Of a stretch of 64,000 nucleotides of DNA, positions 30,823 to 42,599 are shown piece by piece; positions within the stretch are counted from its first letter, which is position 1; each line of letters starts with the position of its first letter. The stretch comes from an uncultured Anaerolineales bacterium. GTDB lineage: Bacteria; Chloroflexota; Anaerolineae; B4-G1; SLSP01. The position numbers and the translations under genes were made by a program. The stretch lies in assembly GCA_964437445.1 (NCBI GenBank), contig CAYTGR010000002.1, positions 52,406 through 116,405 of the forward strand, read 5' to 3'. The notes beneath the pieces are model-generated. The model was given only the letters and a program-made list of their open reading frames with translations. It had not been told where the DNA came from and did no database searches.

Positions 30823-31590
30823 CTAAGCGCAGACGACGCCACCACTGACCGCGCGGCGCAGCTGCTCCAGCTGGCCGGCCATGCTGCCATCAACGACCTG
30901 ATTGCCCAGGCGCAATACCACTCCGCCCAAGAGCGCCGGGTTGACTTTGAAGGTCACGGTTGGCTCATGGCCCAGGCGGCGGGTCAGGTCGGCGCGGAGG
31001 GTGGCCTGTTCGGCCTCCGTCAGCGGGACGGCGCTGGTAATCTCCACATCGGCAGCCTCACCCGGCTGGACCATTTCCAGGATGGGCACACGCTCTTCCT
31101 GGATGCCACTGAAGAACGAAGCTACCAGCTGGCGCTGACGCTGCTCGTCCAGCGACTCGCCGATCAGCCGGTTGGTAGCGGCGATGGCCAGGGCGGTGAT
31201 CTCGTCGCGGGTGCGCGAGAGGATGCGCTCTTTTTCGCGCTGCGCATCGGTGCGGGATTGCTCCAGCAGGCGACGGGCTTCCTCGTTGGCGCGCTCCACG
31301 ATCTCTTCACGGATCTTCTGGGCCTCTTGCGAGGCGGTGGCGATGACCTGGCGGGCTTCATCGCGGGCCGCGGCCAGCAGCTGAGCGTGTTCTTCTTCAG
31401 CGCGGGCGCGGGCCGCCGCCGTCTCCTGGGCTTGCTGCTGCATCTGTTCCAGCAACGCACGCCGGGCTGCCAGCCGCTTCATCGCCGGTTTCCAGAGCAA
31501 CGCCGTGAGGGCCGCGAACAAGATCAAGAAATTGACAATCTGGGCCAGGATATAGCTGGGGATAATCCCCAGAGTTCCTAAGGTGTCCAC
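30823..31590 (-). CDS. atpF: F0F1 ATP synthase subunit b fused to the C-terminal part of subunit delta
   Basis: b signature AQIVNFLILF...LLWKP and coiled coil, then delta-type ITSAVPL...KVNPALLGGVVLRLGNQVVDGS..GQL. RBS AGGAGG before GTG. Confidence 0.88.
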   Translation of the reverse strand: MDTLGTLGIIPSYILAQIVNFLILFAALTALLWKPAMKRLAARRALLEQMQQQAQETAAARARAEEEHAQLLAAARDEARQVIATASQEAQKIREEIVERANEEARRLLEQSRTDAQREKERILSRTRDEITALAIAATNRLIGESLDEQRQRQLVASFFSGIQEERVPILEMVQPGEAADVEITSAVPLTEAEQATLRADLTRRLGHEPTVTFKVNPALLGGVVLRLGNQVVDGSMAGQLEQLRRAVSGGVVCA

Positions 31591-31616
31591 AGTGGACCTC
31601 CTGAAAGGGTTGAGTG

Positions 31617-31886
<270 letters not shown>

Positions 31887-31893
31887 TTAAAAT

Positions 31894-32796
31894 TTAGCTG
31901 TGATGTTCTGCTTCCTCACCGTGCTGTTGCGCAGCCATCATGAAGAAAATCAGCGAAAGCATAGAGAAAATCAGGGCCTGCACCACGCCTACAAACAGCT
32001 CTAAGCCCATGAAAGGCAGCGAGACCACGAACGCGGCCAGGTAACTGATGACAATGAGCAGGACTTCACCGGCGAAGACGTTGCCAAACAACCGGAAGGC
32101 AAACGAGAAGATCTTGATGAATTCACTGATCAGTTCCAGCAGGCCGGCAAACCCGTTAGAGAACATCAAAAGGGGCCGCAAAGCACCACTATCCTTGGGG
32201 GCCGTGAAATTGAAGAATTTCCGCAGATAGTGCTGACCCTGGAAGCGGAACCCGAAGTACTGAATGGCAACGAACGAGATCAACGCCAGGGCGAGCGTCA
32301 CGCTCAGGTCGGCATCTGCGCCGCGCAACAGGGGGACCAATATCGCCTCGCCGTTATGTTCCTCCCAGACGCCGATAGAGCCCACGCCGGGCAGCAGGCC
32401 CATCCAGTTGGCGGTGAGGATGAAGAAAAAGAAAGTGCCTACCAGCGGAAACAGGATTGGGGTCAGCTGGGGGCCGGCAATATTGCTCACGAAGTTATAA
32501 ACGGTTTCAAAGATGCCATCGACTGTCGCGATCCAGCCGCTACCGCCTTCGGTGGGGGACAGCCGGCGTACACCCCGCCAGTAGGAGAGGCCTACTCCCA
32601 GCAAAATCAAGGTGGTCAGCAGGGTGGTGGGCAGGGTGTTGGGGATGGCGTACCCGAACAGGTGGAACTTTTCGGGCGCCATGCTGATCTCCGGCATCTC
32701 CTTGCCCGGCAGCAGCAGGCCACCCACGCATAGGAAAAGCAGCAACAGGATCCCCAGGATCAGCCAGGGCTGCTTGCGCGATTTTTCAGGCGCCAT
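31894..32796 (-). CDS. atpB: ATP synthase subunit a
   Basis: FILTANWMGLLPG, LELISE...SFAFRLFGNVFAGE (essential Arg) and LELFVGVVQALIF. Confidence 0.96.
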   Translation of the reverse strand: MAPEKSRKQPWLILGILLLLFLCVGGLLLPGKEMPEISMAPEKFHLFGYAIPNTLPTTLLTTLILLGVGLSYWRGVRRLSPTEGGSGWIATVDGIFETVYNFVSNIAGPQLTPILFPLVGTFFFFILTANWMGLLPGVGSIGVWEEHNGEAILVPLLRGADADLSVTLALALISFVAIQYFGFRFQGQHYLRKFFNFTAPKDSGALRPLLMFSNGFAGLLELISEFIKIFSFAFRLFGNVFAGEVLLIVISYLAAFVVSLPFMGLELFVGVVQALIFSMLSLIFFMMAAQQHGEEAEHHS

Positions 32797-32897
32797 AGCA
32801 CCTCCTCAGAAATAGTCGGTTGGTCATTGAGTTGCCTTGTCAATCGGTTCCGTCGTTTTACCGTTAGTCTGGGCCACTTGTGGCTGGAGACGCCGGC

Positions 32898-33194
32898 TTA
32901 AGGTTCTGAAATATCCGTTGGCTCCGAGGGGGGTGCGGTCTCCGGCGGCCTCTGCTTCATCCGGTTGGCCACCCGTTGCAGGACCCACCGGTAAACCATC
33001 ACCGGTCCCACGATCATCCCCACCAAAACCAGGAGCAAGGTGAAAAGCGGCAGGGTCTTCAAATGGGTGTCCACGATATAACCCAACGCCAGACCGAGCA
33101 GGACCGGGAAAACGAGCAGAAAGCCGGCCTGGCTGCCTACTGTCAGCCCCCAGGCCACGTCTCGCCATTGCTCATGCTGCGGTTCTTGCTGCAT
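32898..33194 (-). CDS. AtpZ/AtpI-family protein
   Basis: Two TM helices with LALGYIVD...PLFTLLLVLVG; first gene of the atp block. Confidence 0.8.
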   Translation of the reverse strand: MQQEPQHEQWRDVAWGLTVGSQAGFLLVFPVLLGLALGYIVDTHLKTLPLFTLLLVLVGMIVGPVMVYRWVLQRVANRMKQRPPETAPPSEPTDISEP

Positions 33195-33236: not shown

Positions 33237-33264
33237 ATTATAACATAACCTGCCGGGCAATCAA
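33237..33264 (-). promoter_or_regulatory. Extended -10 promoter of the atp block
   Basis: Minus strand TTGATT, 16 nt ending in TGT, then TATAAT (33237-33242). Confidence 0.55.
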
Positions 33265-34736
33265 CCGGCGAAAAAGAGCTGCGCCGCAGATTCCAGCCAG
33301 GGCAGGACCAGGCTGGGGAACAATCCTACCAGCAGCACCGCGCCTAAGGTTAGACCCAGGGCAATTTTCAACAGCGGTGGGGTCTCCAGCTTGTCCTCCC
33401 GGATCATGGGGGCCAGATAGAGGGCCTGGATCACTTTCCAGTAGTAGCCGACTGAGATGACGCTGTTGATGACGCCCAACACGGCCAGCCAGACCAGGCC
33501 GCTTTCTATGGCGGCGGAGAAGAGCCAGAGCTTGCCCATGAAACCGGCGGTGCCCGGAATCCCGGCCAGCGAGAGCAGGCAGATGGTCAGCACGGCCGCC
33601 AGCAGAGCCGCCCGTTTGTGGCCGCCGGCGTAGCTGGCGATCAGCTCGCTGCCGGTCTGGTTGGCAAAGGCGATGATGGCGGCAAAGGCGCCCAGGTTGG
33701 TGAGGGCATAGGCGACCAGGTAGAAAAGCACAGCGGTCACGCCCCGGCTGGTGGCAACCGCCACGCCGATCAGGATGTAGCCCGCTTGCGCGATGCTGGA
33801 GTAGGCCATCAGCCGTTTGATGTTTTCCTGGCCCAACGCGGCCAGGTTGCCCACCACCATCGCAAACGCCGAGAGGAAGGTCAGCAGCGGCCAGCGCAGA
33901 TCGCTGCCTAAGGTCAGGACGCCGGGGAAGAGCACCAGCACCACGCGCACCAACAGGGCGAAGCCGGCAATTTTGGGCGCGACCGAGAGAAAAGCCGTGA
34001 CCGGGGTGGGGGCCCCTTCGTAAGCATCTGGCGCCCAGTGGTGGAAAGGAGCGGCGGCCACTTTGTAGGCCAGCCCGGCCAGGATCAGGATCAGGATGGG
34101 GACCAGCGCCAGGGGCGAGATGAATTGCTCAATCATGCGGAGACTGGCTGCAATCCAGAGCAGGTCGGTGCTGCCGGTCAGCCCATAGAGCCAGGAGAAG
34201 CCATAGAGCATGACCGCCGAGAGCGTCGCCCCGTAGATGAAGTACTTAAAAGCGGCCTCGGTGCCGTATTTGTCGTGGCGCAGGTAGCCGGTGAGCAGGT
34301 AAGAGAGGATGCTCAGCAGGTCAAACAGCAGGAAGATGGTAATGAGCTCGGTAGCGGCCCCCAGCAGGCTGATGGAGAGCGCGGCCAGCAGTAGCAGGGC
34401 ATAGAAGAGCGCCGGCTGGTCGGTATGCGCGCGCAGGTAATCCTCGGAGACCAGCACCAGCAGCGTCATCGTCACCCAGGTGATGGCCTTGATGCAGACG
34501 GCAAACAGGTCCAGCTGAAAGACCGCCAGCACTCGCTCCGTTTGCTGTCCCAGCGTCACCGTGGCGACCAGCGCTAAGGTCAGCCCGGCCAGCGAGACAT
34601 AGGGCAGCCAGTGCTGGACCCGCTGGTGTTCAACCAGGTCCAGGCCCAGCAGGAGGAGCGCCGTGGCCAGGACGATCAGCTCGGGCGAGAGGTACCAGGC
34701 GATGGCTCCCCAATTGAGCAGTGTATCCCCATACAA
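33261..34736 (-). CDS. nuoN: NADH-quinone oxidoreductase subunit N
   Basis: EAAFKYF.YG, YKVAAAPFHHWAPDAYEGAPTP, KRLMAYSSIAQAGY, SLAGIP.TAGF.GK and YYWK. Confidence 0.95.
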   Translation of the reverse strand: MYGDTLLNWGAIAWYLSPELIVLATALLLLGLDLVEHQRVQHWLPYVSLAGLTLALVATVTLGQQTERVLAVFQLDLFAVCIKAITWVTMTLLVLVSEDYLRAHTDQPALFYALLLLAALSISLLGAATELITIFLLFDLLSILSYLLTGYLRHDKYGTEAAFKYFIYGATLSAVMLYGFSWLYGLTGSTDLLWIAASLRMIEQFISPLALVPILILILAGLAYKVAAAPFHHWAPDAYEGAPTPVTAFLSVAPKIAGFALLVRVVLVLFPGVLTLGSDLRWPLLTFLSAFAMVVGNLAALGQENIKRLMAYSSIAQAGYILIGVAVATSRGVTAVLFYLVAYALTNLGAFAAIIAFANQTGSELIASYAGGHKRAALLAAVLTICLLSLAGIPGTAGFMGKLWLFSAAIESGLVWLAVLGVINSVISVGYYWKVIQALYLAPMIREDKLETPPLLKIALGLTLGAVLLVGLFPSLVLPWLESAAQLFFAG

Positions 34737-34748
34737 GGTTTACCTCCC

Positions 34749-36278
34749 TTAAGGCAGCGCTCGCAACAACGTGGTCATAGCCGCATTGAACATTTGCAGC
34801 AAGGGGGTGGGATAGAAGCCCAGGAAGACCATGCCCAGGACGAGCGGCCAGAGGGTCACTTTTTCCCACCAGGTCATGTCAGGCAGCTGGCCCCAGCGCT
34901 CTTTATCCAGGGTGCCCAGGAAGACGTATTGCACGATTTTCCAGAGAATGTAGCCGGCGGTGAAGACCATGCCCAGGACGCCGATGAAGGCCGCGGCCGG
35001 GATGAAATAGACGGTGCCCCGGAAGACGAAGAGCTCGCTCCAGAAGCCGGCCAGCCCCGGCAGCCCCAACGACGCGAAGCCGGTGACCATCGTGATCCCG
35101 TAGTAGTAGGGGACCTGCGAGGCCAGCCCGCCGAAGGCTTTGATCTCGCGGGTGTGCGCCCGCTCGTAGATGATGCCGACCAGGAAAAACAGCGCGCCCG
35201 TGATGAGACCGTGGGCGAACATCTGCATCGCGGCCCCGTTCAGGCCCGAAGCGGCGGCGCTCAGCGCGTTCTCCGGTTGCAGGTTGGGATACCCGGCGGC
35301 AGCCGAAGCGATCCCCAACGTGACGTATCCCATGTGTGCCACTGAGGAATAGGCGATCAGCCGTTTGAGGTCCCACTGGGCCATGCAGACCAGCGCACCG
35401 TAGACGATGCTGACGACCGCCAGGACCGGGATAATCGGGACATCCACCACGTAGTAGTGGAACTGCTGCGGGAAAAGCGGCAGGGCGATGCGGATCAGCC
35501 CGTAGGCGCCCAACTTCAGCAGGATGCCCGCCAGGATGACGCTGCCGGCGGTCGGCGCTTCGGTGTGCGCATCCGGCAACCAGGTATGGAAGGGGAAGGA
35601 GGGCACTTTGATGGCAAAGGCGATGAAGAAGGCCCAGAAGGCCATGCTGGCCCAGGTGAAGTTATGGGCAAACGGCTGCGCCTTAGCCGCTTCCAGGATG
35701 TTGAAGGTGCCGGTCTGGAAGTAGACGCTCAGGATCGCCAGCAGCATGAAGACGCTACCGGCCAGCGTATACAGGAAGAACTTGATGGCCGCGTATTCCC
35801 GCCGTTTGCCGCCCCAGACGCCGATGAGCAGGAACATGGGGACCAGGCCGATCTCCCAGAACAGGTAGAACAGCACCAGGTCCAGCGCCATGAAGACGCC
35901 CATCATCCCCAGTTCCAGCAGCAGGAAGAGGAAGAAGTATTCCTTGACCCGTAGCTTGATGACATAGGACGAGTAGAACAGGGAGAGCGTGGTCAGCAGG
36001 CCGGTCAGGAAGATCATGGGGGCGCTCAACCCATCGGCGGCTACTTCGTACCAGATGTGGAAAGAGGGAATCCAGGCGTAACGTTCGGTCAGCTGCATGG
36101 TCTCGGCGCCCTGTTGGGCGACCAGCCACCAGATGAGAGCCCCCTGCACCAGCGTGATGAAGGCAAAAGCCGTGCCGATGCGCCGGATGGTCTTCTCATC
36201 CTCGCGTGGGATAATCAACACGAGCAGGGCTCCCACCAATGGAGTAAACAGGGTGACGCTCAAAATTGGAAAATTCAT
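34749..36278 (-). CDS. nuoM: NADH-quinone oxidoreductase subunit M
   Basis: FWEIGLVPM, IKVP.FPFHTWLPDAHTEAPT, LLKLGAYG, KRLIAYSS.AHMG and GLPGLAGFWSE. Confidence 0.95.
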   Translation of the reverse strand: MNFPILSVTLFTPLVGALLVLIIPREDEKTIRRIGTAFAFITLVQGALIWWLVAQQGAETMQLTERYAWIPSFHIWYEVAADGLSAPMIFLTGLLTTLSLFYSSYVIKLRVKEYFFLFLLLELGMMGVFMALDLVLFYLFWEIGLVPMFLLIGVWGGKRREYAAIKFFLYTLAGSVFMLLAILSVYFQTGTFNILEAAKAQPFAHNFTWASMAFWAFFIAFAIKVPSFPFHTWLPDAHTEAPTAGSVILAGILLKLGAYGLIRIALPLFPQQFHYYVVDVPIIPVLAVVSIVYGALVCMAQWDLKRLIAYSSVAHMGYVTLGIASAAAGYPNLQPENALSAAASGLNGAAMQMFAHGLITGALFFLVGIIYERAHTREIKAFGGLASQVPYYYGITMVTGFASLGLPGLAGFWSELFVFRGTVYFIPAAAFIGVLGMVFTAGYILWKIVQYVFLGTLDKERWGQLPDMTWWEKVTLWPLVLGMVFLGFYPTPLLQMFNAAMTTLLRALP

Positions 36279-36294: not shown

Positions 36295-38535
36295 TCAGAT
36301 TTGACGGAATAAGATGACAATGACAATCAACACGACAATCATCATGATTGCGTTCCAGAGATAATCCTGGATCAGGCCGGTCTGCATCTCGCGCATCCGG
36401 CGGCCCAACGAACGGGTCAAGTCGGCGGTGGCGTTGACCAGGCCGTCCACGATTTTCTCATCAATCACGTTGCCCAGCCAGGAGAGGAACCGGCCCAGCA
36501 TCCCGGCAGCATTGACCAGACCGTCCACAATCGTGGCATCCAGCCAGTTGAACAGCGTCGAGAGTCCTCGCACCAGGCGCGGCACAAAGTTGACCACGCC
36601 ATCCACGACGGTGCGGTCAAACCAGGCGCTCAGCTCCGAGGCCCGCAGCGCCAACCAGACAAACGTGTGCTGGTAGAGCCAGTCAAAATAGAAGCGTTCG
36701 CGCATGGCATCATACAGCCAGCCCAGGTAAAGCGCGCGCAGTGCCCGCTCCAACCGGTCCGGTTCGCCGGCCACCATCGGCTTCCACCCGTAGACCAGAT
36801 AGCCCAACAGCAGGCCGCCCAGGGCGGCAGTCAGCCCGGCCGCCAGTGGCTGCCAGACGAAAGCCGCCGGCTCGGAAGCGGCGGCCAGGCCGGCCGCGAG
36901 CCGCCCGATTTCATGCCCCCCTTCCAGTGTGGAGCCGACAAAGTGGTGGAACCAGTTGGGCAGCAGCCCGCCCAGCACCGGGAAATGCTCCGGGATGCCG
37001 GCCCAGCCTAAGGTGACCGAGAAGAAGGCCAGAATCATGAGCGGGACGGTCATGGAGGGGACACTTTCGGGCACGTGGGCCGCTGCCTCGGTGCGCGGCT
37101 CGCCCAGGAAGGTGAGGCTGATCTGCCGCATGGTGTAGAAAGCGGTCAGACCGGCGGCCACGGCCAGCACCCAGAAGATCGTGGGGTTGAGCTCCCAGGC
37201 CTGCGCCAGAATCTCATCCTTAGACCAGAAGCCGGCGGTGAAGAGCGGGAAGCCGGCCAGCGCCAGCCCGCCGATGAGGAAAGTCCAGAAGGTGCGGGGC
37301 ATTCGCCGGGCCAACCCGCCCATGTTCATCATGTCGTTGGGATTGAAGGGCGCGGCGGGATGGTGCTCCTCCTCGCCATGCCCGGCGTGCCCGTGCTCGT
37401 GAGCGTGGTGGTGGCCGTGTTCCATCCCGTGGATGACCGACCCAGAGCCGAGGAAGAGCAGGGCCTTGAAGAAAGCGTGCGTGATGAGGTGGAAAGCGCC
37501 GGCCACGTAAGCGCCCATTCCCAGCGCGGCGACCATGTAACCCAGCTGGCTGATGGTGGAGAAGGCCAGCACCCGCTTGATGTCGTTCTGGGCCAGGGCG
37601 ATCACGGCGGAGAAGATGGCGGTGAAAGCTCCAATCCAGGCCACCGTGGTCAGCTGGATGCCGCCCGGCACGGCGCTCAGCAGCGGGAAGGTGCGCACCA
37701 CCAGATAGACGCCAGCCGAGACCATCGTCGCGGCGTGGATCAACGCCGAGACCGGGGTCGGGCCTTCCATCGCGTCGGGCAGCCAGACGTGCAGCGGGAA
37801 CTGCGCGCTCTTGCCCACCGTCCCGCCGAAGATCAGCAGCGCGATCACCGTCGCATACGAGAGCGGCGTCCCCAGGAAGGGCGTCGTCGCCAGATGGTGC
37901 AGGACTTCGGCGCTGAAGACTTCGCGGTAAGAGAGCGTGCCGACTTCAGCATACAGGACCACCAGCCCCAACATCAGGAAGAGGTCGCCGACTTTGGTGA
38001 CCAGGAAAGCTTTCAGCCCGGCGTTGAAGGCCGATTTCTTCTCGTACCAGAAGCCGATCAGGAGGTAGGAGCAGGTGCCCATGATCTCCCAGAACAGGAA
38101 GAGCGTCAGCAGGCTGTTGAAGACGACCATGCCCAACATCGCCATCGCAAAAAGCGAAATGTAGGCGAAGAAGCGGCTGTAGCGCGGGTCGCCGTGCATG
38201 TAGCCCACGCTGTAAATAAAGATCATCAGACAGACCAGCGGCACCATGAAGAGCATGATGGTGCTGGCCGGGTCAATATAAATCCCCACGCCCAGGTTGA
38301 GCGTGCCGGCCGGCAGCCAGGACTCCAGCACCGACTCAAACGCCTGCTCGCCCCCGCCGACCGGCAACGTCACCGCCCGCCAGAAGACCAGTTGCGCCAG
38401 CAAGAAGGCGATGGCAATGCCGGCAATGGCGACCGTGTGGCTCAGCTTGCGGTTGGCGCCGGTGAAGAGCGCAATCGCCACAAATGCCAGAAAGGGAAAA
38501 AGCGGAATCAGCCAGGCCAGTTGCAAAAGCTCCAT
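36295..38535 (-). CDS. nuoL: NADH-quinone oxidoreductase subunit L with extended lateral helix and His-rich loop
   Basis: FWEIMG, GKSAQFPLHVWLPDAMEGPTPVSALIHAATMV, HAFFKALLF and FWSKDEI. Three D..(I/V)VDG.VN repeats before QTG. Confidence 0.95.
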   Translation of the reverse strand: MELLQLAWLIPLFPFLAFVAIALFTGANRKLSHTVAIAGIAIAFLLAQLVFWRAVTLPVGGGEQAFESVLESWLPAGTLNLGVGIYIDPASTIMLFMVPLVCLMIFIYSVGYMHGDPRYSRFFAYISLFAMAMLGMVVFNSLLTLFLFWEIMGTCSYLLIGFWYEKKSAFNAGLKAFLVTKVGDLFLMLGLVVLYAEVGTLSYREVFSAEVLHHLATTPFLGTPLSYATVIALLIFGGTVGKSAQFPLHVWLPDAMEGPTPVSALIHAATMVSAGVYLVVRTFPLLSAVPGGIQLTTVAWIGAFTAIFSAVIALAQNDIKRVLAFSTISQLGYMVAALGMGAYVAGAFHLITHAFFKALLFLGSGSVIHGMEHGHHHAHEHGHAGHGEEEHHPAAPFNPNDMMNMGGLARRMPRTFWTFLIGGLALAGFPLFTAGFWSKDEILAQAWELNPTIFWVLAVAAGLTAFYTMRQISLTFLGEPRTEAAAHVPESVPSMTVPLMILAFFSVTLGWAGIPEHFPVLGGLLPNWFHHFVGSTLEGGHEIGRLAAGLAAASEPAAFVWQPLAAGLTAALGGLLLGYLVYGWKPMVAGEPDRLERALRALYLGWLYDAMRERFYFDWLYQHTFVWLALRASELSAWFDRTVVDGVVNFVPRLVRGLSTLFNWLDATIVDGLVNAAGMLGRFLSWLGNVIDEKIVDGLVNATADLTRSLGRRMREMQTGLIQDYLWNAIMMIVVLIVIVILFRQI
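36400..36630 (-). repeat. Intragenic 78-bp tandem repeat x3 in nuoL
   Basis: GTTGACCAGGCCGTCCACGAT (36433), ATTGACCAGACCGTCCACAAT (36511) and GTTGACCACGCCATCCACGAC (36589); exact 78-nt period. Confidence 0.9.
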
Positions 38536-38543
38536 CGCTTCCC

Positions 38544-38852
38544 TCAACCCTTGAGCAATTTCATCTTATCGGTCAACACCACCTCGCGGTTGCGCCAGAT
38601 GGCGATGATCAGGGCCAGGCCCACGCCGGTCTCCGCGGCGGCTAAAGCGAAGACGAACAGGGTGAACGTCTGCCCTACCACCGCGCCCGCTTCCAGGTAG
38701 CGCGCTAAGGCGACCAGATTGAGATTGACCGCGTTGAGCATCAGCTCCAGCGACATCAACACCGCCACCACATGCCGCCGGGCCAGCACACCGTAAAGTC
38801 CAATGGCAAATAAGACCGCTGCCAGAATCAAATACCAGCTCAGAGGCACCAT
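38544..38852 (-). CDS. nuoK: NADH-quinone oxidoreductase subunit K
   Basis: LFAIGLYG, LMSLELMLNAVNLN and LAAAE.GVGLAL (both conserved Glu); ends LKG. Confidence 0.96.
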   Translation of the reverse strand: MVPLSWYLILAAVLFAIGLYGVLARRHVVAVLMSLELMLNAVNLNLVALARYLEAGAVVGQTFTLFVFALAAAETGVGLALIIAIWRNREVVLTDKMKLLKG

Positions 38853-39362
38853 TTAGCGCTCCTTTGCGATATAAATGGCTCCTAACAGAACCACCAGCAA
38901 GAGCAAAGAGGTGATTTCAAAGGGGGCGACGAACTTGCCGGGGTCCACTAAAGCCTGCCCCAAGGCCAGGAGATTATCCTGCGCCGGGTGTAACGGCTCT
39001 TTCGGCCAGGGGATTTGCACGATCATCCAGACCACCCCGGCCAGGACTAACAGCGCTGTTACCAGGGCGGTCAGCGGCTCGTTGACACTCTTTTCGGTCG
39101 GGTGCATCACCTGCCGCGAGACCATGATGACCATGACGATCAGGACGGCGATGCCGCCGATGTAGATGAAAAGCTGGAGGCCGGCGATGAAAGGGGCCTC
39201 CAGCAGCATGTAAAGCGCGGCCAGGCCGAAGAGGGCCAGCACCAGCCAGAGGGCGGTGTGGAAGAGATTGCGGCTGGTGACGACGCAAATGGCCGCACCC
39301 ACCGTCAAAGCGGCAAAAATGGCGAACAGCACGGTTTGCACGGTGATAGGTATGGCCGTCAT
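38853..39362 (-). CDS. nuoJ: NADH-quinone oxidoreductase subunit J
   Basis: NLFHTALWL, LQLFIYIGGIAVL and PFEITSLLLLVVLLGAI. Confidence 0.94.
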   Translation of the reverse strand: MTAIPITVQTVLFAIFAALTVGAAICVVTSRNLFHTALWLVLALFGLAALYMLLEAPFIAGLQLFIYIGGIAVLIVMVIMVSRQVMHPTEKSVNEPLTALVTALLVLAGVVWMIVQIPWPKEPLHPAQDNLLALGQALVDPGKFVAPFEITSLLLLVVLLGAIYIAKER

Positions 39363-40606
39363 CCTGCGTTCTCCCCTTCTGGGCTGGTGAGATTGAGTGT
39401 GGCGAACCGCCGGGCTGCTAAGCGGCGCTGTTGGCGCTTCCCTGCCAGATAGAGCAGGCCATAGGTGCCTAAAGCGATCAGGACATTGGTCAGGAAGAGC
39501 AGGCCCGCCTGGCCCCAGGCCGAGGTGATCCCCGCATCCCGGATCAGCCGGTCGGCAATGGCGATGACTACCACTGTGACCAGCGCCAATGGCGTCAGGA
39601 ACTTCCAGTTGAAGTTCAAGATGTGGTCAATCCGCATCCGGGGCATGGCGGCCCAGAAGGCAAAGAGCACGGTGACGACGATCATCGTCTTGAGCATGAG
39701 CCAGAAGATGCCCAGGATGGGGACGGCTTCCACGCCGGGGCCGCGCCAGCCGCTCCAGAAAAGCATCACAAAGATGAGCGCCACGGTGAAGTTGTTGATG
39801 AACTCGCCCAGATAGAAAGCGCCGAACATCATGCCGCTGTACTCGGTCTGGTAGCCGGCCACGATTTCCGCGTCGGCCTCGGCCAGCTCAAAGGGCAGCC
39901 GCCCGATTTCGGCGGTGATGGCGAGGAAGAAGATCAGCGCCGGGATCGGCAGCGCGATGAAGAACGGCACGCTTTGGGCTTGAATCAGGCCTTGCATGGA
40001 GAGCGTGCCGGCCAGCATCACCGGGGCCAGCAGGGATAACATCTGCGGAATCTCGTAGCTGATGAGCAGTGAGGCCGCGCGGAAGGCCCCCACATCGGCG
40101 TATTTGTTCCGGGAGCTCCACCCGCCCATCAACATGGTGAACAGGCTGGCCGAGGAGATCGCCAGGATGTAGAAGATGCCGATGTTGAGATCCACCCCCT
40201 GCATCCCGTTTGGCCCGAAGGGGAGCACCGCCCAGACCGCCAGGGACATGGCTACCATCAGGACCGGCGCCAGGACGAAGACCACCACGTCGGCCCCTTC
40301 CGGGATGATCAGCTCTTTGGTGAGGATTTTGATGGCGTCGGCAAACGATTGCAACAGCCCGTAAGGGCCGTTGAAGACGCCGGAGTTGTTGGGGCCGATC
40401 CGGTCCTGGATGCGGGCGACGATCTTGCGGGCATACCAGATGAAAAACAGGGTGGCCAGCAAAGGGATAGTTGCCAGAATCAGCCCGCCGAGGATGCGCA
40501 GGATGAGGGCCGCCCAGAACGGGGTCAGCCTCCAGCCCAACAGCAGGTCGTTCAACCAGGCCCCGGCGTTGACAAAGAAGTCCGCAATGAAAGCCCAAAA
40601 GGTCAT
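39359..40606 (-). CDS. nuoH: NADH-quinone oxidoreductase subunit H
   Basis: RKIVARIQDR.GPN, GLLQSFADAIK...KE, ISYEIP, RLPFELAEADAE.VAGY.TEYSG and PRMRID. Confidence 0.95.
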   Translation of the reverse strand: MTFWAFIADFFVNAGAWLNDLLLGWRLTPFWAALILRILGGLILATIPLLATLFFIWYARKIVARIQDRIGPNNSGVFNGPYGLLQSFADAIKILTKELIIPEGADVVVFVLAPVLMVAMSLAVWAVLPFGPNGMQGVDLNIGIFYILAISSASLFTMLMGGWSSRNKYADVGAFRAASLLISYEIPQMLSLLAPVMLAGTLSMQGLIQAQSVPFFIALPIPALIFFLAITAEIGRLPFELAEADAEIVAGYQTEYSGMMFGAFYLGEFINNFTVALIFVMLFWSGWRGPGVEAVPILGIFWLMLKTMIVVTVLFAFWAAMPRMRIDHILNFNWKFLTPLALVTVVVIAIADRLIRDAGITSAWGQAGLLFLTNVLIALGTYGLLYLAGKRQQRRLAARRFATLNLTSPEGENAG

Positions 40607-40642
40607 CTTACCTCCTGGAATTCAGACGGGGTGCGGAGGGAC

Positions 40643-40999
40643 TTACATCCACTCCAGATCGCCTTTGAGCCAGACGTAGACCAGCCCGGCGACCAGCAAC
40701 AACAGAAATAGGACCGCTTCCAAGATGGCGTAAAGGGGCAGCTGGCGGTAGGCAATCGCCCAGGGCAGCAACAGCGCTGCTTCCACGTCAAAGACCAGGA
40801 AGGCAATGGCAAACAGATAGAATTGGGGCTTGAAGCGGATCCAGGTCTCGCCAAACGTTTTGATCCCCGACTCGTAAATCTGTTGTTTGCGGGCGCTGAG
40901 CTTTTTAGGGCTGAGCAACCAGGCCAGTACAATAGGGGCGGCGCCAAAGAAAAGTGCAATCAGCAGAAAAATCCCAATGTAGGCATATTCGCTGACCAA
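40643..40999 (-). CDS. nuoA: NADH-quinone oxidoreductase subunit A
   Basis: IYESG, FYLFAIAFLVFDVEAALLLPWA and KGDLEW. TTG start at 40999 after AGGAGG. Confidence 0.94.
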   Translation of the reverse strand: MVSEYAYIGIFLLIALFFGAAPIVLAWLLSPKKLSARKQQIYESGIKTFGETWIRFKPQFYLFAIAFLVFDVEAALLLPWAIAYRQLPLYAILEAVLFLLLLVAGLVYVWLKGDLEWM

Positions 41000-41045
41000 G
41001 AGGACCTCCTGCCATCCAGAGAATGGGATACGGAATAACGGCAAA

Positions 41046-41073
41046 ATTATAACACGGTCTGGGATAAGGACAA
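41046..41073 (-). promoter_or_regulatory. Sigma70-type promoter of the nuo operon
   Basis: Minus strand TTGTCC, 16 nt ending in TGT, then TATAAT; about 45 nt upstream of nuoA. Confidence 0.65.
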
Positions 41074-41081
41074 CTTTCCCA

Positions 41082-42599
41082 TCAAGGAGCTTTGGCCCGC
41101 CGGTAGAGCTTTTGGAACTCCGCCAGATAGCGCTGGGCGAGCTCCGGGCTGCGCATGACCAGGGCGAGCTCGTCTTCATCCGGCGGCAGGTCTTCGGCGC
41201 CGTGGAAGAAGCCGGTGATGGTGATGGCTTCATCCACTATGATGACCTGAGGGGCCTGTCCGGCCAGCCCCTCGGCCAGCCGTACATCCAGCCCGGCCTT
41301 TTGCCAGCCGGCCCAGGCTGCTGCTTGCTGGCGGACCAGGGCCGCATCCAGGATGGCCTGCACCGCCAGCCCGGCCTTCTGCTTTTTCTGGAGGATGGCC
41401 TGCAGGGTGTTGTCGGCGGGGGCGAAACCGGCGCAGCGCAGGCTGGTTTTAGCGCCCTTGAGGAGCGGCAAGAGCGGCAACAGCACATCCTCTTCCGGTG
41501 CGGCGTACAGGTCCAGTTGTAGCTCGCCCACCTTGAGCGCCAGATGGGGGCGCGCGGGGGCACGGCCGGTGCGCTTCTCAAACAGGGTGTTGAACCGGGT
41601 GACGTGGGAGCCAACCAGATCGGGTGCTGTGAACACCAGCGCGCCGGTGCGCTGGCGGTAGGTGCTCTGCACGGTGAACTCCCAGGCGCCGGTCCACAGC
41701 TGCTTCTGGTCAAGGATGACCAGGCTGGCGGGCTTGAGCAGCTCCGGGGCGATTTCTGCCACCGGCACGCCCGCCGCTTTCAGCGCCTTGAGGGGGGGCC
41801 GGCTCAGGGCGGCGGTCGTGGTCAGCAGCCGGACTTTGACGCCGCGCTGGTGTGCGCGGAGCAGCGCCTCGGCCAGCCGGGGCAGGTCCGGCGCGGCGGC
41901 AGCCAGGTCCACGCTGGTTTTGGTGGTATCCAGCGCAGCGACCAGCAGCTCTTCCAGACCGCCCTTCTCCTCCTGGCCGGGGAGGCTCAGGTGAAGCTGG
42001 AGCTGGACCGCCCCGTCTTTATACTTGAAGGTGTGGAGCTGCGCCGGCCCGCTGGCCACGGCCGGGGCCGGAGCCGGTTTGGGCTGACCGGCTGGCTTGG
42101 GGGCGGCGGCTGCCGGGTGGGATTGGCCGGCCGGCCGGGGGGATGGCGTGCCGGAGGTGGTCGTGGCGGGTTTGGCGGGTTGCTGAGCGGCCGGTGAGCT
42201 GGGGGTTGGGCGGGGAGCGGCGGCCGGTTGGGCCGCGACGTGACTTTTGCAGACGCCGCGTTGCTCATCAAAATCCTTCAGGCAGACAATCTTGCTGCAG
42301 GTGGGGCACTGGCGGAATTGCTGGCTGACCGTGGCCCAGGCCAGATTGACCTGGGGGACGGTCAGGACCGCCGGGCGCAGCAGCTCCGATTGGGAGACGT
42401 TTTGGGCGGCGGTGCTGCCCAGCACTTTGCCCAGCAGGCTGCTGATGGCCTGCTCGCCCAATTCCTGAACGGCGCTGCTGATAGCGTCCGGCGCGGTGCG
42501 CGTGCCCTGACCGCACAGTTCGCAGAAGAAGACGACATAAGGGCCGGCGCCATCGTTCTGCACTTTGTAAGGGGGTAGGCGGGTGGGGGTTGTGCTCAT
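41082..42599 (-). CDS. Cys-rich N-terminal domain + Pro-rich linker + two degenerate PLD-like domains
   Basis: FCELCG and CPTCSKIVC. PLD-like folds SVDLAA..LPRLAEALLRAHQRGVKVRL / VILDQKQLWTGAW.FT and LRCAGF / VIIVDEAITITG, both lacking HxKxxxxD. Confidence 0.7.
   Translation of the reverse strand: MSTTPTRLPPYKVQNDGAGPYVVFFCELCGQGTRTAPDAISSAVQELGEQAISSLLGKVLGSTAAQNVSQSELLRPAVLTVPQVNLAWATVSQQFRQCPTCSKIVCLKDFDEQRGVCKSHVAAQPAAAPRPTPSSPAAQQPAKPATTTSGTPSPRPAGQSHPAAAAPKPAGQPKPAPAPAVASGPAQLHTFKYKDGAVQLQLHLSLPGQEEKGGLEELLVAALDTTKTSVDLAAAAPDLPRLAEALLRAHQRGVKVRLLTTTAALSRPPLKALKAAGVPVAEIAPELLKPASLVILDQKQLWTGAWEFTVQSTYRQRTGALVFTAPDLVGSHVTRFNTLFEKRTGRAPARPHLALKVGELQLDLYAAPEEDVLLPLLPLLKGAKTSLRCAGFAPADNTLQAILQKKQKAGLAVQAILDAALVRQQAAAWAGWQKAGLDVRLAEGLAGQAPQVIIVDEAITITGFFHGAEDLPPDEDELALVMRSPELAQRYLAEFQKLYRRAKAP

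What the first reader, a model, noticed from the sequence alone, without database searches (positions are those of the whole stretch)
36400..36630. NuoL lateral helix triplicated (3 x 26 aa) although the operon has only one nuoM
Seen: an exact 78-nt period gives WFDRTVVDGVVNFVPRLVRGLSTLFN / WLDATIVDGLVNAAGMLGRFLSWLGN / VIDEKIVDGLVNATADLTRSLGRRM, and 96 residues separate FDWLY from QTG. Established: this amphipathic helix straps the L-M-N pumping subunits, canonical NuoL has one such unit (roughly 41-47 residues, from memory), and published '2M' complex I variants lengthen it to fit an extra NuoM. Inference: two extra units would span two more antiporter-like subunits. These could be encoded elsewhere, or several copies of the single NuoM (or NuoN) product could be incorporated, giving a longer pump with higher H+/e- stoichiometry.
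Basis: partly seen in the sequence, partly recalled or inferred. Interest (0 to 1): 0.88.

Follow-up and report, generated by a model that had tools for sequence, protein, structure and literature searches.

The report
Over-long modular clamp helix in NuoL
The complex I subunit NuoL of this Anaerolineae bacterium has a lateral clamp helix built from three tandem 26-residue modules where every solved complex I has one, and relatives with the same L-M-N gene set carry two to seven, so module number does not follow the number of nuoM genes next to nuoL.

Summary
NuoL (window 36295-38535, minus strand, 746 aa) carries three contiguous 26-aa modules between the FYFDWLY motif and the QTG/TM16 junction. 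An in-register shuffle test gives z = 11 (0 of 20000). Every solved NuoL/NdhF has one module.

The repeat is old (45-59% nt identity) and positionally conserved in orthologues. It belongs to a lineage-wide trait. Among about 86 parsed Anaerolineae homologues the array has 2-7 modules, most often 3. It changes by in-frame 78/81-nt tandem duplication and by exact one-module deletion between proteins about 90% identical.

- 1 module: always L-M-N (9/9).
- 2 modules: L-M-M-N in 44 loci and L-M-N in 43.
- 3, 4 and 5 modules: L-M-N.
- No L-M-M-M-N in 168 loci.

The 26-aa quantum is the published "2M" insertion, and every 2M operon here has at least two modules. Extra length therefore looks necessary but not sufficient for an extra NuoM.

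Best reading (about 0.45): a modular, over-length clamp that adds no pumps. The alternative is extra antiporter protomers, either unlinked genes or repeated NuoM (about 0.3). It is not excluded. It needs a genome-wide gene census or measured subunit stoichiometry.

The parts
36295..38535 (-). nuoL, 746 aa from the ATG at 38535 (the mechanical ORF starts at a TTG at 38547). Antiporter-like core, then TM15, lateral helix HL and TM16.
   Evidence: Pfam PF00662 + PF00361. NCBIfam NuoL equivalog NF005141 scores 623.7, above its cutoff of 556. An identical product is called on a JGI contig. Foldseek top hits are NdhF1/NuoL chains. The catalytic motifs FWEIMG, GKSAQ...LIHAAT, HLITHAFFK and FWSKDE are present.
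36382..36756 (-). The whole lateral helix HL, aa 594-718, about 125 residues. Comparable stretches in one-module NuoL are about 73 residues.
   Evidence: The AF2 model has helices 594-601, 605-612, 614-687 and 695-718. pLDDT is 85-96 up to about aa 660 and below 50 at 684-695 and 714-723.
36673..36693 (-). FYFDWLY anchor motif (aa 615-621). It corresponds to E. coli D542, which lies over NuoL.
   Evidence: The motif is read directly from the sequence. It aligns to YFDELY of NdhF1. D542 is named as a partially conserved HL residue in PMC3274701. The match of D542 to the FD of the motif rests on the E. coli sequence recalled from memory.
36547..36624 (-). HL module 1 (aa 638-663), WFDRTVVDGVVNFVPRLVRGLSTLFN. 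This is the module that aligns to the single module of solved NuoL/NdhF.
   Evidence: Mean pairwise identity is 56% among 14 orthologues in register.
36469..36546 (-). HL module 2 (aa 664-689), WLDATIVDGLVNAAGMLGRFLSWLGN. Extra relative to solved structures.
   Evidence: Mean pairwise identity is 51% among orthologues, with a position-specific consensus NWLDxxxVDxxVNLxGxxGR.
36391..36468 (-). HL module 3 (aa 690-715), VIDEKIVDGLVNATADLTRSLGRRMR. This is the terminal module that precedes QTG.
   Evidence: Mean pairwise identity is 45% among orthologues.
36376..36384 (-). QTG junction motif between HL and TM16 (aa 718-720).
   Evidence: Q718 and G720 are invariant in alignment A1. The same Q-[TSN]-G-x-x-Q-x-Y junction appears in NuoL with one to seven modules.
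36301..36372 (-). TM16, the C-terminal anchor helix (aa 722-745).
   Evidence: AF2 helix 722-745. The sequence is hydrophobic: LIQDYLWNAIMMIVVLIVIVILF.
34749..36278 (-). nuoM, the only M-type gene in the window (509 aa).
   Evidence: PF00361. NCBIfam TIGR01972 scores 554, above its cutoff of 263.8. Gene call in L004.
33261..34736 (-). nuoN (491 aa).
   Evidence: PF00361. NCBIfam TIGR01770 scores 370.9, above its cutoff of 332.6.
38544..40999 (-). nuoA (40643-40999), nuoH (39359-40606), nuoJ (38853-39362) and nuoK (38544-38852). Together with L, M and N this is a membrane-arm-only cluster. nuoB, C, D, I, E, F and G are absent from it.
   Evidence: Pfam, gene calls in L004, NCBIfam. No other nuo genes occur in the window.

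Best explanation
This is the membrane-arm operon (nuoA-H-J-K-L-M-N) of an Anaerolineae (Chloroflexota) complex I. The lateral clamp helix of its NuoL is built from tandem 26-residue modules.

Shown:
- The window's NuoL has three modules where all solved enzymes have one.
- The three modules are old, positionally orthologous and under purifying selection within a subclade.
- Across the lineage the array holds 2-7 modules. It changes by in-frame tandem duplication of 78/81 nt and by exact one-module deletion.
- Module number is not matched by the number of antiporter-like genes next to nuoL.

Inferred:
- The helix acts as a clamp or tether, not a piston. Its first module does the canonical job of contacting NuoM and reaching NuoN.
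- The extra modules lengthen the strap without adding pumps. They lie as an amphipathic helix on the cytoplasmic membrane surface further along the arm.
- Three modules give roughly 125 residues, about 190 A if straight. That is about the length of the whole membrane arm, so TM16 may be carried towards the NuoK/J/A-NuoH end, or the helix may be slack.
- On this reading the H+/e- stoichiometry stays that of an L-M-N enzyme.
For: Module counts and gene order:
- Searches show three in-register modules (z = 11).
- Searches show that every solved NuoL/NdhF has one module.
- Searches show that the FYFD-to-QTG distance in the closest 120 homologues is quantised in steps of 26 residues, giving 2-7 modules. 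Module-type strings include ABZ, ABCZ, ABBZ and AAAABBZ, which indicates several independent internal expansions.
- tabulates 1 module with L-M-N in 9/9, 2 modules with L-M-N in 43 and L-M-M-N in 44, and 3-5 modules with L-M-N. There is no L-M-M-M-N.
- Searches show A-H-J-K-L-M-N with 4 modules and J-K-L-M-N with 5.

Turnover of the array:
- Searches show recent tandem DNA repeats in relatives (81 nt x 3.0 at 95%, 78 nt x 3.6 at 80%).
- Searches show two NuoL proteins about 90% identical that differ by exactly one 26-aa module, and the 4-module one has L-M-N. Such turnover is hard to reconcile with each module changing pump number by one.

Clamp role and predicted structure:
- (Belevich 2011) concludes that the E. 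coli helix is a clamp. Most insertions that make it longer or more flexible leave activity and pumping near wild type.
- Searches show that AF2 predicts the extension as helix, with no confident compact domain.

Energetics (established redox potentials, my inference): five antiporter modules plus the E-channel would mean about 6 H+/2e-. With NADH and menaquinone that leaves only about 80 mV per proton.
Against: - Each extra module keeps the same D..VDG.VN..G..R..S stripe. It is conserved position by position among orthologues at 45-56%, close to the flanking helix segments at 58-64%. That is more constraint than pure slack would predict.
- The equivalent of the module start is the part of the E. 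coli helix closest to NuoM.
- The 26-aa quantum equals one antiporter width. It is the insertion that accompanies a second NuoM in 2M enzymes.
- All 46 two-M operons have at least two modules, and none of the nine one-module operons has two M genes (Fisher p = 0.003, not corrected for phylogeny).
- The HL-TM16 junction motif is the same whatever the module number. This suggests the same docking partner, which a longer taut helix could only reach if more subunits lay in between.
- Arrays of 4-7 modules are longer than any canonical membrane arm, so 'strap along the arm' cannot be the general answer.
- Insertions of 6-7 residues at one site in E. coli did cut pumping to 20-25%.
- No structure or stoichiometry exists for any enzyme with two or more modules.
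Confidence: 0.45

Rival explanations
1. The membrane arm really is longer. Each extra 26-residue module spans one additional antiporter-like protomer, giving L-M-M-M-N here. The extra protomers would be either extra copies of the single NuoM product, with the helix acting as a ruler that sets how many are held, or paralogues encoded elsewhere in the genome. This would raise the H+/e- ratio, or favour reverse electron flow or a low-potential donor.
For: - 26 aa times 1.5 A is about 39 A, roughly one antiporter width. This is the published rationale for the 2M insertion.
- An extended helix is a precondition for a second M in my sample: 0 of 9 one-module operons have two M genes, against 46 of 89 two-module operons.
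- The modules keep a conserved polar or small stripe and positional orthology.
- The module start matches the NuoM-contacting residues of E. coli.
- The junction motif to TM16 does not change with module number.
- Genes are scattered in this lineage. nuoB, C, D and I are not in the cluster. M and N are unlinked from L in the P0021 and P0038 genomes, and N is unlinked in P0097.
- Non-operonal nuoM and nuoL copies are reported in Nitrospira.
Against: - No operon with three M genes occurs in 168 loci.
- 3, 4 and 5 modules occur with L-M-N.
- 43 L-M-N operons from many phyla already have two modules.
- No further antiporter-like gene lies within 10 kb of the nuoL genes with three or more modules, or within the 64-kb window.
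- Module number differs between proteins about 90% identical and is changed by recent duplications. That is faster than gene content is likely to follow, and a change of one pump per module should not be near-neutral.
- With 7 modules the enzyme would have 9 antiporter modules, which is implausible energetically (inference).
- No complex I with homo-oligomeric M has ever been described.
Confidence: 0.3
2. The length is an evolutionary leftover or a pre-adaptation. The lineage once had, or is on its way to having, additional NuoM subunits. The helix length is then a relic or a permissive state with no present function for the extra modules. Yu et al. suggested this for Manganitrophaceae NuoL proteins that carry the insertion without a second NuoM.
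For: - PMC9040806 notes such insertions in complexes without an extra M and offers exactly this reading.
- Two-M and one-M operons with two modules coexist within Chloroflexota.
- One three-module NuoL (L020) is followed by two M-type genes.
Against: - The three modules are positionally conserved across a subclade whose members are only 65-72% identical overall.
- Two-module L-M-N operons are spread across many phyla.
- A functionless 52-aa relic should decay or be deleted. Deletion is mechanistically easy here, since an exact one-module loss is seen.
Confidence: 0.12
3. The extra modules dock something other than an antiporter-like subunit. Candidates are a lineage-specific membrane protein, a neighbouring complex I in a row or dimer, or another respiratory complex.
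For: - The modules are conserved, yet there are no matching antiporter genes.
- Arrays of 4-7 modules exceed the length of one complex.
- nuo membrane genes are repeatedly adjacent to ATP synthase genes in this lineage. This is only a weak hint.
Against: - No candidate partner gene is conserved next to nuoL.
- Synteny with atp genes has ordinary explanations.
- Nothing here tests the idea directly.
Confidence: 0.08

Closest known systems
NuoL of '2M' complex I (Chadwick, Hemp, Fischer and Orphan 2018, ISME J; known to me only through PMC9040806, PMC6606698 and PMC7117926)
   Same: - The NuoL lateral helix is lengthened by a 26-residue insertion at the same place.
- The Chloroflexi type has the same split layout, with nuoB, C, D and I separate from the cluster that holds nuoL, M and N.
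- My 2M loci (Thermoflexus, Anaerolineae, Acidobacteriota) all have about 76-80 residues from FYFD to QTG, which is two modules.
   Different: - The window has two extra modules, not one, and only one nuoM between L and N.
- Its modules are of the well-conserved VDGLVN type. The Chloroflexi 2M NuoL proteins carry divergent modules (IDGxLHG..., VINGxGD...).
- Relatives reach seven modules with L-M-N.
NuoL of 'Ca. Manganitrophaceae' Complex_I_1 and Complex_I_2 (Yu et al. 2022, PMC9040806)
   Same: A 26-aa HL insertion is present although the complex has no second NuoM. The authors called this curious.
   Different: - The insertions described there are of the size found in 2M NuoL. Tandem arrays of modules and variation in module number are not described.
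- The phylum is different (Nitrospirota).
Canonical NuoL / NdhF1 / ND5 lateral helix in solved structures (3RKO, 4HEA, 6HUM, 8E9G, 8QBY)
   Same: - Same fold (Foldseek probability 1.0, target TM-score 0.80-0.84).
- Same TM15-HL-TM16 architecture.
- Same FYFD and QTG anchor motifs and a recognisable VDGxVN module.
   Different: Solved structures have one module, about 45 residues between the anchors against 96 here. All were solved with exactly L, M and N.
MrpA of Mrp antiporters
   Same: An antiporter-like core followed by a lateral helix that straps the next subunit.
   Different: - MrpA continues into a NuoJ-like C-terminal domain.
- The window protein scores far below the MrpA model cutoffs (277 against 937).
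- The window protein sits in a nuo operon.

Membership tests
NuoL (NADH-quinone oxidoreductase subunit L) | Proton_antipo_N + Proton_antipo_M domains, and a score above the curated NuoL model cutoff | tested here: met
   PF00662 (6e-19) and PF00361 (1e-76). NF005141 equivalog scores 623.7 against a cutoff of 556, and TIGR01974 scores 603.6 against 407.5.
NuoL (NADH-quinone oxidoreductase subunit L) | Conserved charged residues of the proton path: TM5 Glu, TM7 Lys, TM8 His, TM11 His/Lys, TM12 Lys-Asp | tested here: met
   The motifs FWEIMG, GKSAQ...LIHAAT, HLITHAFFK and FWSKDE are present and nearly invariant in A1. Assigning them to specific TM helices relies on established knowledge of E. coli NuoL.
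NuoL (NADH-quinone oxidoreductase subunit L) | C-terminal TM15, long amphipathic lateral helix and TM16 | tested here: met
   AF2 helices 561-583, 594-718 (with breaks) and 722-745. Module hydrophobic moments are 0.34-0.51.
NuoL (NADH-quinone oxidoreductase subunit L) | Position in a nuo operon between nuoK and nuoM | tested here: met
   Gene order is A-H-J-K-L-M-N.
2M complex I (Chadwick 2018) | NuoL lateral helix lengthened by a 26-aa insertion | tested here: met
   The helix is two modules (52 aa) longer than one-module NuoL. That is more than the single insertion that defines the family.
2M complex I (Chadwick 2018) | A second nuoM gene in the operon (nuoL-M-M-N) | tested here: not met
   Only one M-type and one N-type gene follow nuoL. 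No other antiporter-like gene occurs in the 64 kb.
2M complex I (Chadwick 2018) | A second (or third) NuoM-type subunit encoded anywhere in the genome, or present in the assembled complex | not testable with these tools
   Only 64 kb of the genome is available. Whole assemblies cannot be fetched, and there are no stoichiometry data.
2M complex I, Chloroflexi layout | nuoB, C, D and I encoded away from the cluster that holds nuoL, M and N | tested here: met
   The cluster lacks B, C, D and I (and E, F, G), and none is in the window. The layout is described in PMC7117926.
Cyanobacterial/plastid NdhF | Score above the NdhF model cutoff | tested here: not met
   NF005626 scores 515.8 against a cutoff of 963, although NdhF1 is the closest solved structure.
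MrpA (Mrp antiporter subunit A) | NuoJ-like C-terminal domain, and a score above the MrpA model cutoffs | tested here: not met
   The best MrpA model scores 277.5 against a cutoff of 937. The protein ends 26 residues after QTG.

The most novel reading that the evidence does not exclude
The lateral helix is a molecular ruler. Each 26-residue module captures one antiporter-like protomer, and the single NuoM product is incorporated several times (L-M-M-M-N here, up to L-M7-N in relatives). A 78-nt tandem duplication in nuoL alone would then change the number of pumps and the H+/e- ratio of complex I, with no new gene needed.
Probability: 0.15. Interest if true: 0.92.

Novelty: new variant of a known kind. 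Interest (0 to 1): 0.62.

Why it matters
The lateral helix of NuoL/ND5 is one of the most debated elements of complex I (piston or clamp). The only known natural length variants are the single 26-aa insertions tied to a second NuoM.

Here nature supplies a length series of one to seven modules on an otherwise constant L-M-N gene set. Some neighbouring steps are separated by about 10% sequence divergence.

- If the extra modules bind extra pumps, complex I stoichiometry would be tunable by a simple repeat expansion. The membrane arm could then be far longer than any known.
- If they do not, the series shows that the helix tolerates doubling or tripling of its length. That would argue strongly for a passive clamp or tether role. 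It would also mean that 'lengthened NuoL' cannot be used on its own to annotate high-stoichiometry (2M) complexes in metagenomes.

Either outcome can be reached with one cryo-EM structure or a quantitative subunit stoichiometry. About half of the ordinary L-M-N operons sampled across many phyla already carry a second module that no structure explains.

Tried and rejected
- Tandem Repeats Finder on the window region found nothing. The repeat is visible only at protein level, so a recent duplication or assembly artefact was rejected.
- The primary paper, Chadwick 2018, is not held. I relied on three papers that cite it.
- Looking up the ORF from its TTG start failed. The real start is the ATG at 38535.
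- The genome and metagenome scans were saturated by generic NuoL peptide patterns. They returned mostly relatives 40-55% identical, which served as controls but gave few loci with three or more modules. Those came from six of the ten protein look-ups.
- My first module-counting regexes were wrong or too strict, and one attempt was out of register. I replaced them with anchor distances, a module HMM and register-tolerant typing. Distance-based counting calls some 3-module proteins 4-module, because many carry a 6-26-aa insertion (FDYGQ...HG) before module 1.
- The search of 1.84 billion representatives with the 78-aa array gave 196 hits at E-value up to 0.001. Most of the 150 listed are short enough to be NuoL C-terminal fragments. 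One is a chance hit to an unrelated 2222-aa surface repeat protein (P0199). The search added no new family.
- AF2 on the window NuoL and on the 7-module P0100 predicts helix throughout the arrays. Confidence is low from about module 2 onward (pLDDT 40-65). Neither a compact hairpin domain nor a straight helix can be asserted.
- Multimer modelling (L+M+N against L+3M+N) could not be run with the tools.
- A genome-wide count of antiporter-like genes could not be made for any genome.
- I considered that the region before FYFD might be shorter and so compensate for the extra length. It is not: 32 residues after TM15 here, against about 26 in E. coli (the E. coli figure is from memory).
Full report
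**Observation**

The minus-strand ORF 36295-38547 translates to a NuoL-type protein. Its real start is the ATG at 38535, giving 746 aa. That exact product is called on an independent JGI metagenome contig, and four other members of its 90% cluster are 745-746 aa.

- aa 638-663, window 36547-36624
- aa 664-689, window 36469-36546
- aa 690-715, window 36391-36468

Ninety-six residues lie between FDWLY and QTG. The modules share 35-54% of residues and 45-59% of bases, and Tandem Repeats Finder sees nothing in the DNA. The repeat is therefore old. It is far beyond chance: the in-register BLOSUM62 sum is 138 against -81 +/- 20 for shuffles, 0 of 20000, z = 11.

**The gene and its surroundings**

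- Pfam and NCBIfam identify nuoA, H, J, K, L, M and N in that order on the minus strand (40999 down to 33261). L, M and N score above curated cutoffs.
- The catalytic motifs of an active antiporter-like subunit are intact.
- The cluster contains no nuoB, C, D, I, E, F or G. tblastn and Pfam find no further nuo or antiporter-like gene anywhere in the 64 kb.
- Immediately downstream lie atpZ, atpB (a), atpE (c) and a b-delta fusion. No F1 genes are present.
- All close homologues come from Anaerolineae/Chloroflexota metagenome-assembled genomes.
- The split layout, with the membrane-arm genes together and nuoB, C, D and I elsewhere, is the one reported for Chloroflexi complex I by a paper citing Chadwick 2018 (PMC7117926).

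**What is canonical**

The closest solved structure is cyanobacterial NdhF1 (6HUM chain F). It aligns without gaps through FYFD and module 1, then has only 40 residues left for the rest of the helix and TM16.

A two-module query aligns either of its modules to the single module of NdhF1, M. smegmatis NuoL (8E9G), P. denitrificans NuoL (8QBY) and chloroplast NdhF. So every solved enzyme has one module.

Belevich et al. (PMC3274701) map the E. coli helix. D542 is a partially conserved HL residue, P552 sits between L and M, P564-N566 are the residues closest to NuoM, and truncation at Y590 removes the C-terminal end of NuoL. Using the E. coli sequence from memory, D542 falls in the FD of the anchor motif, and the residues closest to NuoM fall at the start of the window's module 1.

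**The lineage-wide picture**

- The 120 best homologues are 700-850 aa.
- The FYFD-to-QTG distance is quantised at 76, 102, 128, 154, 180 and 206 residues. There are side series about 6 and up to about 20 residues longer, caused by an insertion before module 1.
- A module HMM and register-tolerant typing give 2 modules in 7 proteins, 3 in 44, 4 in 27, 5 in 4, 6 in 2 and 7 in 1.
- Module-type strings such as ABZ, ABCZ, ABBZ, ACCZ and AAAABBZ show that different internal modules were amplified in different branches.
- In two relatives the amplification is recent enough to see in DNA: 81 nt x 3.0 copies at 95% identity in the 5-module gene, found on several contigs from two samples, and 78 nt x 3.6 at 80% in the 7-module gene.
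- P0326 (4 modules) and P0322 (3 modules) are about 90% identical outside a single gap of exactly one module.
- Within 90% clusters the length is otherwise constant, so the array is not hypervariable within populations.
- For 14 orthologues in register with the window protein, each module has its own positional consensus. Mean pairwise identity is 56, 51 and 45% for modules 1, 2 and 3, against 58-64% for the preceding helix segments and 57% for the TM16 region. Orthologous modules are more alike than the paralogous modules within one protein. This means purifying selection with positional identity, not concerted evolution.

**Does module number track nuoM number?**

| Modules | Gene order found |
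|---|---|
| 1 | L-M-N in 9 of 9 |
| 2 | L-M-M-N in 44 (plus 2 partial variants); L-M-N in 43 |
| 3 | L-M-N in 4 plus the window; L-M-M in 1 |
| 4 | A-H-J-K-L-M-N |
| 5 | J-K-L-M-N; A-H-J-K-L with M and N elsewhere |
| 6 | K-L-M with N elsewhere |
| 7 | J-K-L-M, then the contig ends |

- The two-module L-M-M-N loci come from Thermoflexus, Anaerolineae and Acidobacteriota.
- The two-module L-M-N loci come from Ignavibacteriota, Bacteroidota, Poribacteria, Zixibacteria, Omnitrophota, Caldithrix, Bacillota, Actinomycetota, Caldilineaceae and several Anaerolineae.
- The sister of the five-module genome has 4 modules and the same A-H-J-K-L layout, with M and N elsewhere.
- No operon has three M genes.

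An extended helix thus looks necessary for a second M (0/9 against 46/89, Fisher p = 0.003, uncorrected for phylogeny). It is plainly not sufficient, and beyond two modules nothing in cis matches the extra length.

**Structure prediction**

- AF2 with a 107-sequence alignment gives a confident NuoL core (mean pLDDT 86.9). It predicts a continuous helix 614-687 covering the FYFD segment and modules 1 and 2, a break at 688-694, a helix 695-718 (module 3), and TM16 at 722-745. Confidence falls below 70 from about residue 670 and below 50 around the breaks.
- Foldseek confirms the NuoL/NdhF fold.
- The 7-module relative is predicted as helices of 102 and 71 residues plus the terminal module and TM16, all at pLDDT 40-65.
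- The arrays are therefore predicted helical, with no confident compact domain. The path of the helix cannot be decided without its partners.

**Mechanism**

Shown: the helix is modular, over-length by two modules relative to all solved enzymes, conserved, variable in module number across the lineage, and unmatched by adjacent genes.

Inferred, and my preferred reading (about 0.45): the helix is a clamp or tether, as the E. coli mutagenesis concluded. Module 1 does the canonical job, and the extra modules lengthen the strap without adding pumps.

- About 125 residues is roughly 190 A if straight, which is about the whole membrane arm.
- The main arguments are the L-M-N gene sets at 3-5 modules, the one-module difference between near-identical proteins, the recent duplications, the many two-module L-M-N operons in other phyla, and energetics.
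- On energetics: about 6 H+/2e- from NADH to menaquinone would leave about 80 mV per proton. This uses established potentials, and the quinone type is assumed.
- The main arguments against are the conservation of each module's polar stripe, the exact one-antiporter-width quantum, the invariant junction to TM16, and the fact that 4-7 modules exceed any single arm.

Gene scattering in this lineage and non-operonal nuoM copies in Nitrospira keep it alive. A relic or pre-adaptation reading (about 0.12) and docking of some other partner (about 0.08) remain possible.

**Comparison with what is known**

[quoted passage not shown] The window meets the helix criterion twice over but fails the defining second nuoM in the operon. 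I therefore do not file it as 2M.
- Yu et al. already noted single 26-aa insertions in Manganitrophaceae NuoL without an extra M and left them unexplained.
- I found nothing in the searchable literature on tandem arrays of three to seven modules, on their copy-number turnover, or on how common two-module L-M-N operons are. The primary 2018 paper could not be read, so part of this may be known.
- My rating is a new variant of a known kind.

**Limits**

- No whole genome could be examined.
- No multimer could be modelled.
- M/N typing rests on BLAST to the window's own subunits, although the count of antiporter-like genes does not depend on that typing.
- The sampled loci are not phylogenetically independent.
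- AF2 confidence is low exactly where it matters.

Noticed in passing
window 37345-37428 (nuoL aa 370-397): A histidine- and glutamate-rich loop, GMEHGHHHAHEHGHAGHGEEEHHPAAPF. It is longer than the matching loop of NdhF1 in the pairwise alignment, and its start (GMEHGHHHxHxH) is conserved in the clade consensus. It may bind metal. AF2 leaves it unstructured.
   Followed up: partly
window 30823-33194 (minus strand), directly downstream of nuoN: A partial ATP synthase Fo cluster: atpZ-like gene, subunit a, subunit c and a b-delta fusion. No F1 genes occur anywhere in the window. nuo membrane-arm genes and atp genes are neighbours in several relatives as well (L001, L003, L168, L169), in different orders.
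   Followed up: partly
loci L005-L164 (for example L043, L045, L052, L053, L058, L068-L070, L077): About half of the ordinary L-M-N operons sampled across many phyla have a two-module helix, 26 aa longer than in any solved complex I. The phyla include Ignavibacteriota, Bacteroidota, Poribacteria, Zixibacteria, Omnitrophota, Bacillota and Actinomycetota. No published structure explains where the extra 39 A goes.
   Followed up: partly
L001 8960-9682 and 12792-14813; L002 likewise: In the 5-module relative a nucleotidyltransferase/HEPN gene sits between nuoJ and nuoK. A 673-aa integrase follows nuoL where nuoM and nuoN would be expected. The sister genome (L168) lacks both inserts but also lacks M and N at this locus.
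   Followed up: no
L001 12015-12255; L003 8224-8563: Recent in-frame tandem DNA repeats lie inside nuoL of relatives: 81 nt x 3.0 at 95% identity, and 78 nt x 3.6 at 80%. The array is still expanding in some lineages.
   Followed up: yes
homologues P0002, P0004, P0025, P0036, P0050, P0051 and others, just before module 1: A variable insertion of 6 to about 26 residues (FDYGQ...(E/K-rich, V-rich)...HG) lies between the FYFD segment and module 1. It is absent from the window protein. It produces side series in the anchor distances about 6 and up to about 20 residues longer than the main steps.
   Followed up: no
window 39359-40606 (nuoH): NuoH is 415 aa, with about 65 residues beyond the C-terminal end of the Pfam NADHdh model. 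It passes the NuoH equivalog cutoff only barely (305.2 against 305). Chloroflexota NuoH ORFs in the fetched loci are generally long (about 395-470 aa, stop to stop).
   Followed up: no
L165 16156-22409; L167 49-7613 and 14716-21210: In 4- and 5-module relatives the nuo cluster is flanked by aldehyde:ferredoxin oxidoreductase and Hdr/FlpD-like iron-sulfur genes. In L167 a V-type ATPase operon also lies alongside. This hints at a ferredoxin-linked, anaerobic energy metabolism.
   Followed up: no
P0148 (813 aa): A second NuoL with about 7 modules has several substitutions in otherwise invariant catalytic motifs (LIHAAT to LIQSAT, MEGPTP to VEGPAP). It may be a decaying copy.
   Followed up: no
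window 40643-41233 and 41082-42599: The mechanical nuoA ORF (196 aa) is over-extended. The real nuoA is 118 aa (40643-40999). The upstream ORF is a PLD-like (PLDc_2) protein.
   Followed up: partly
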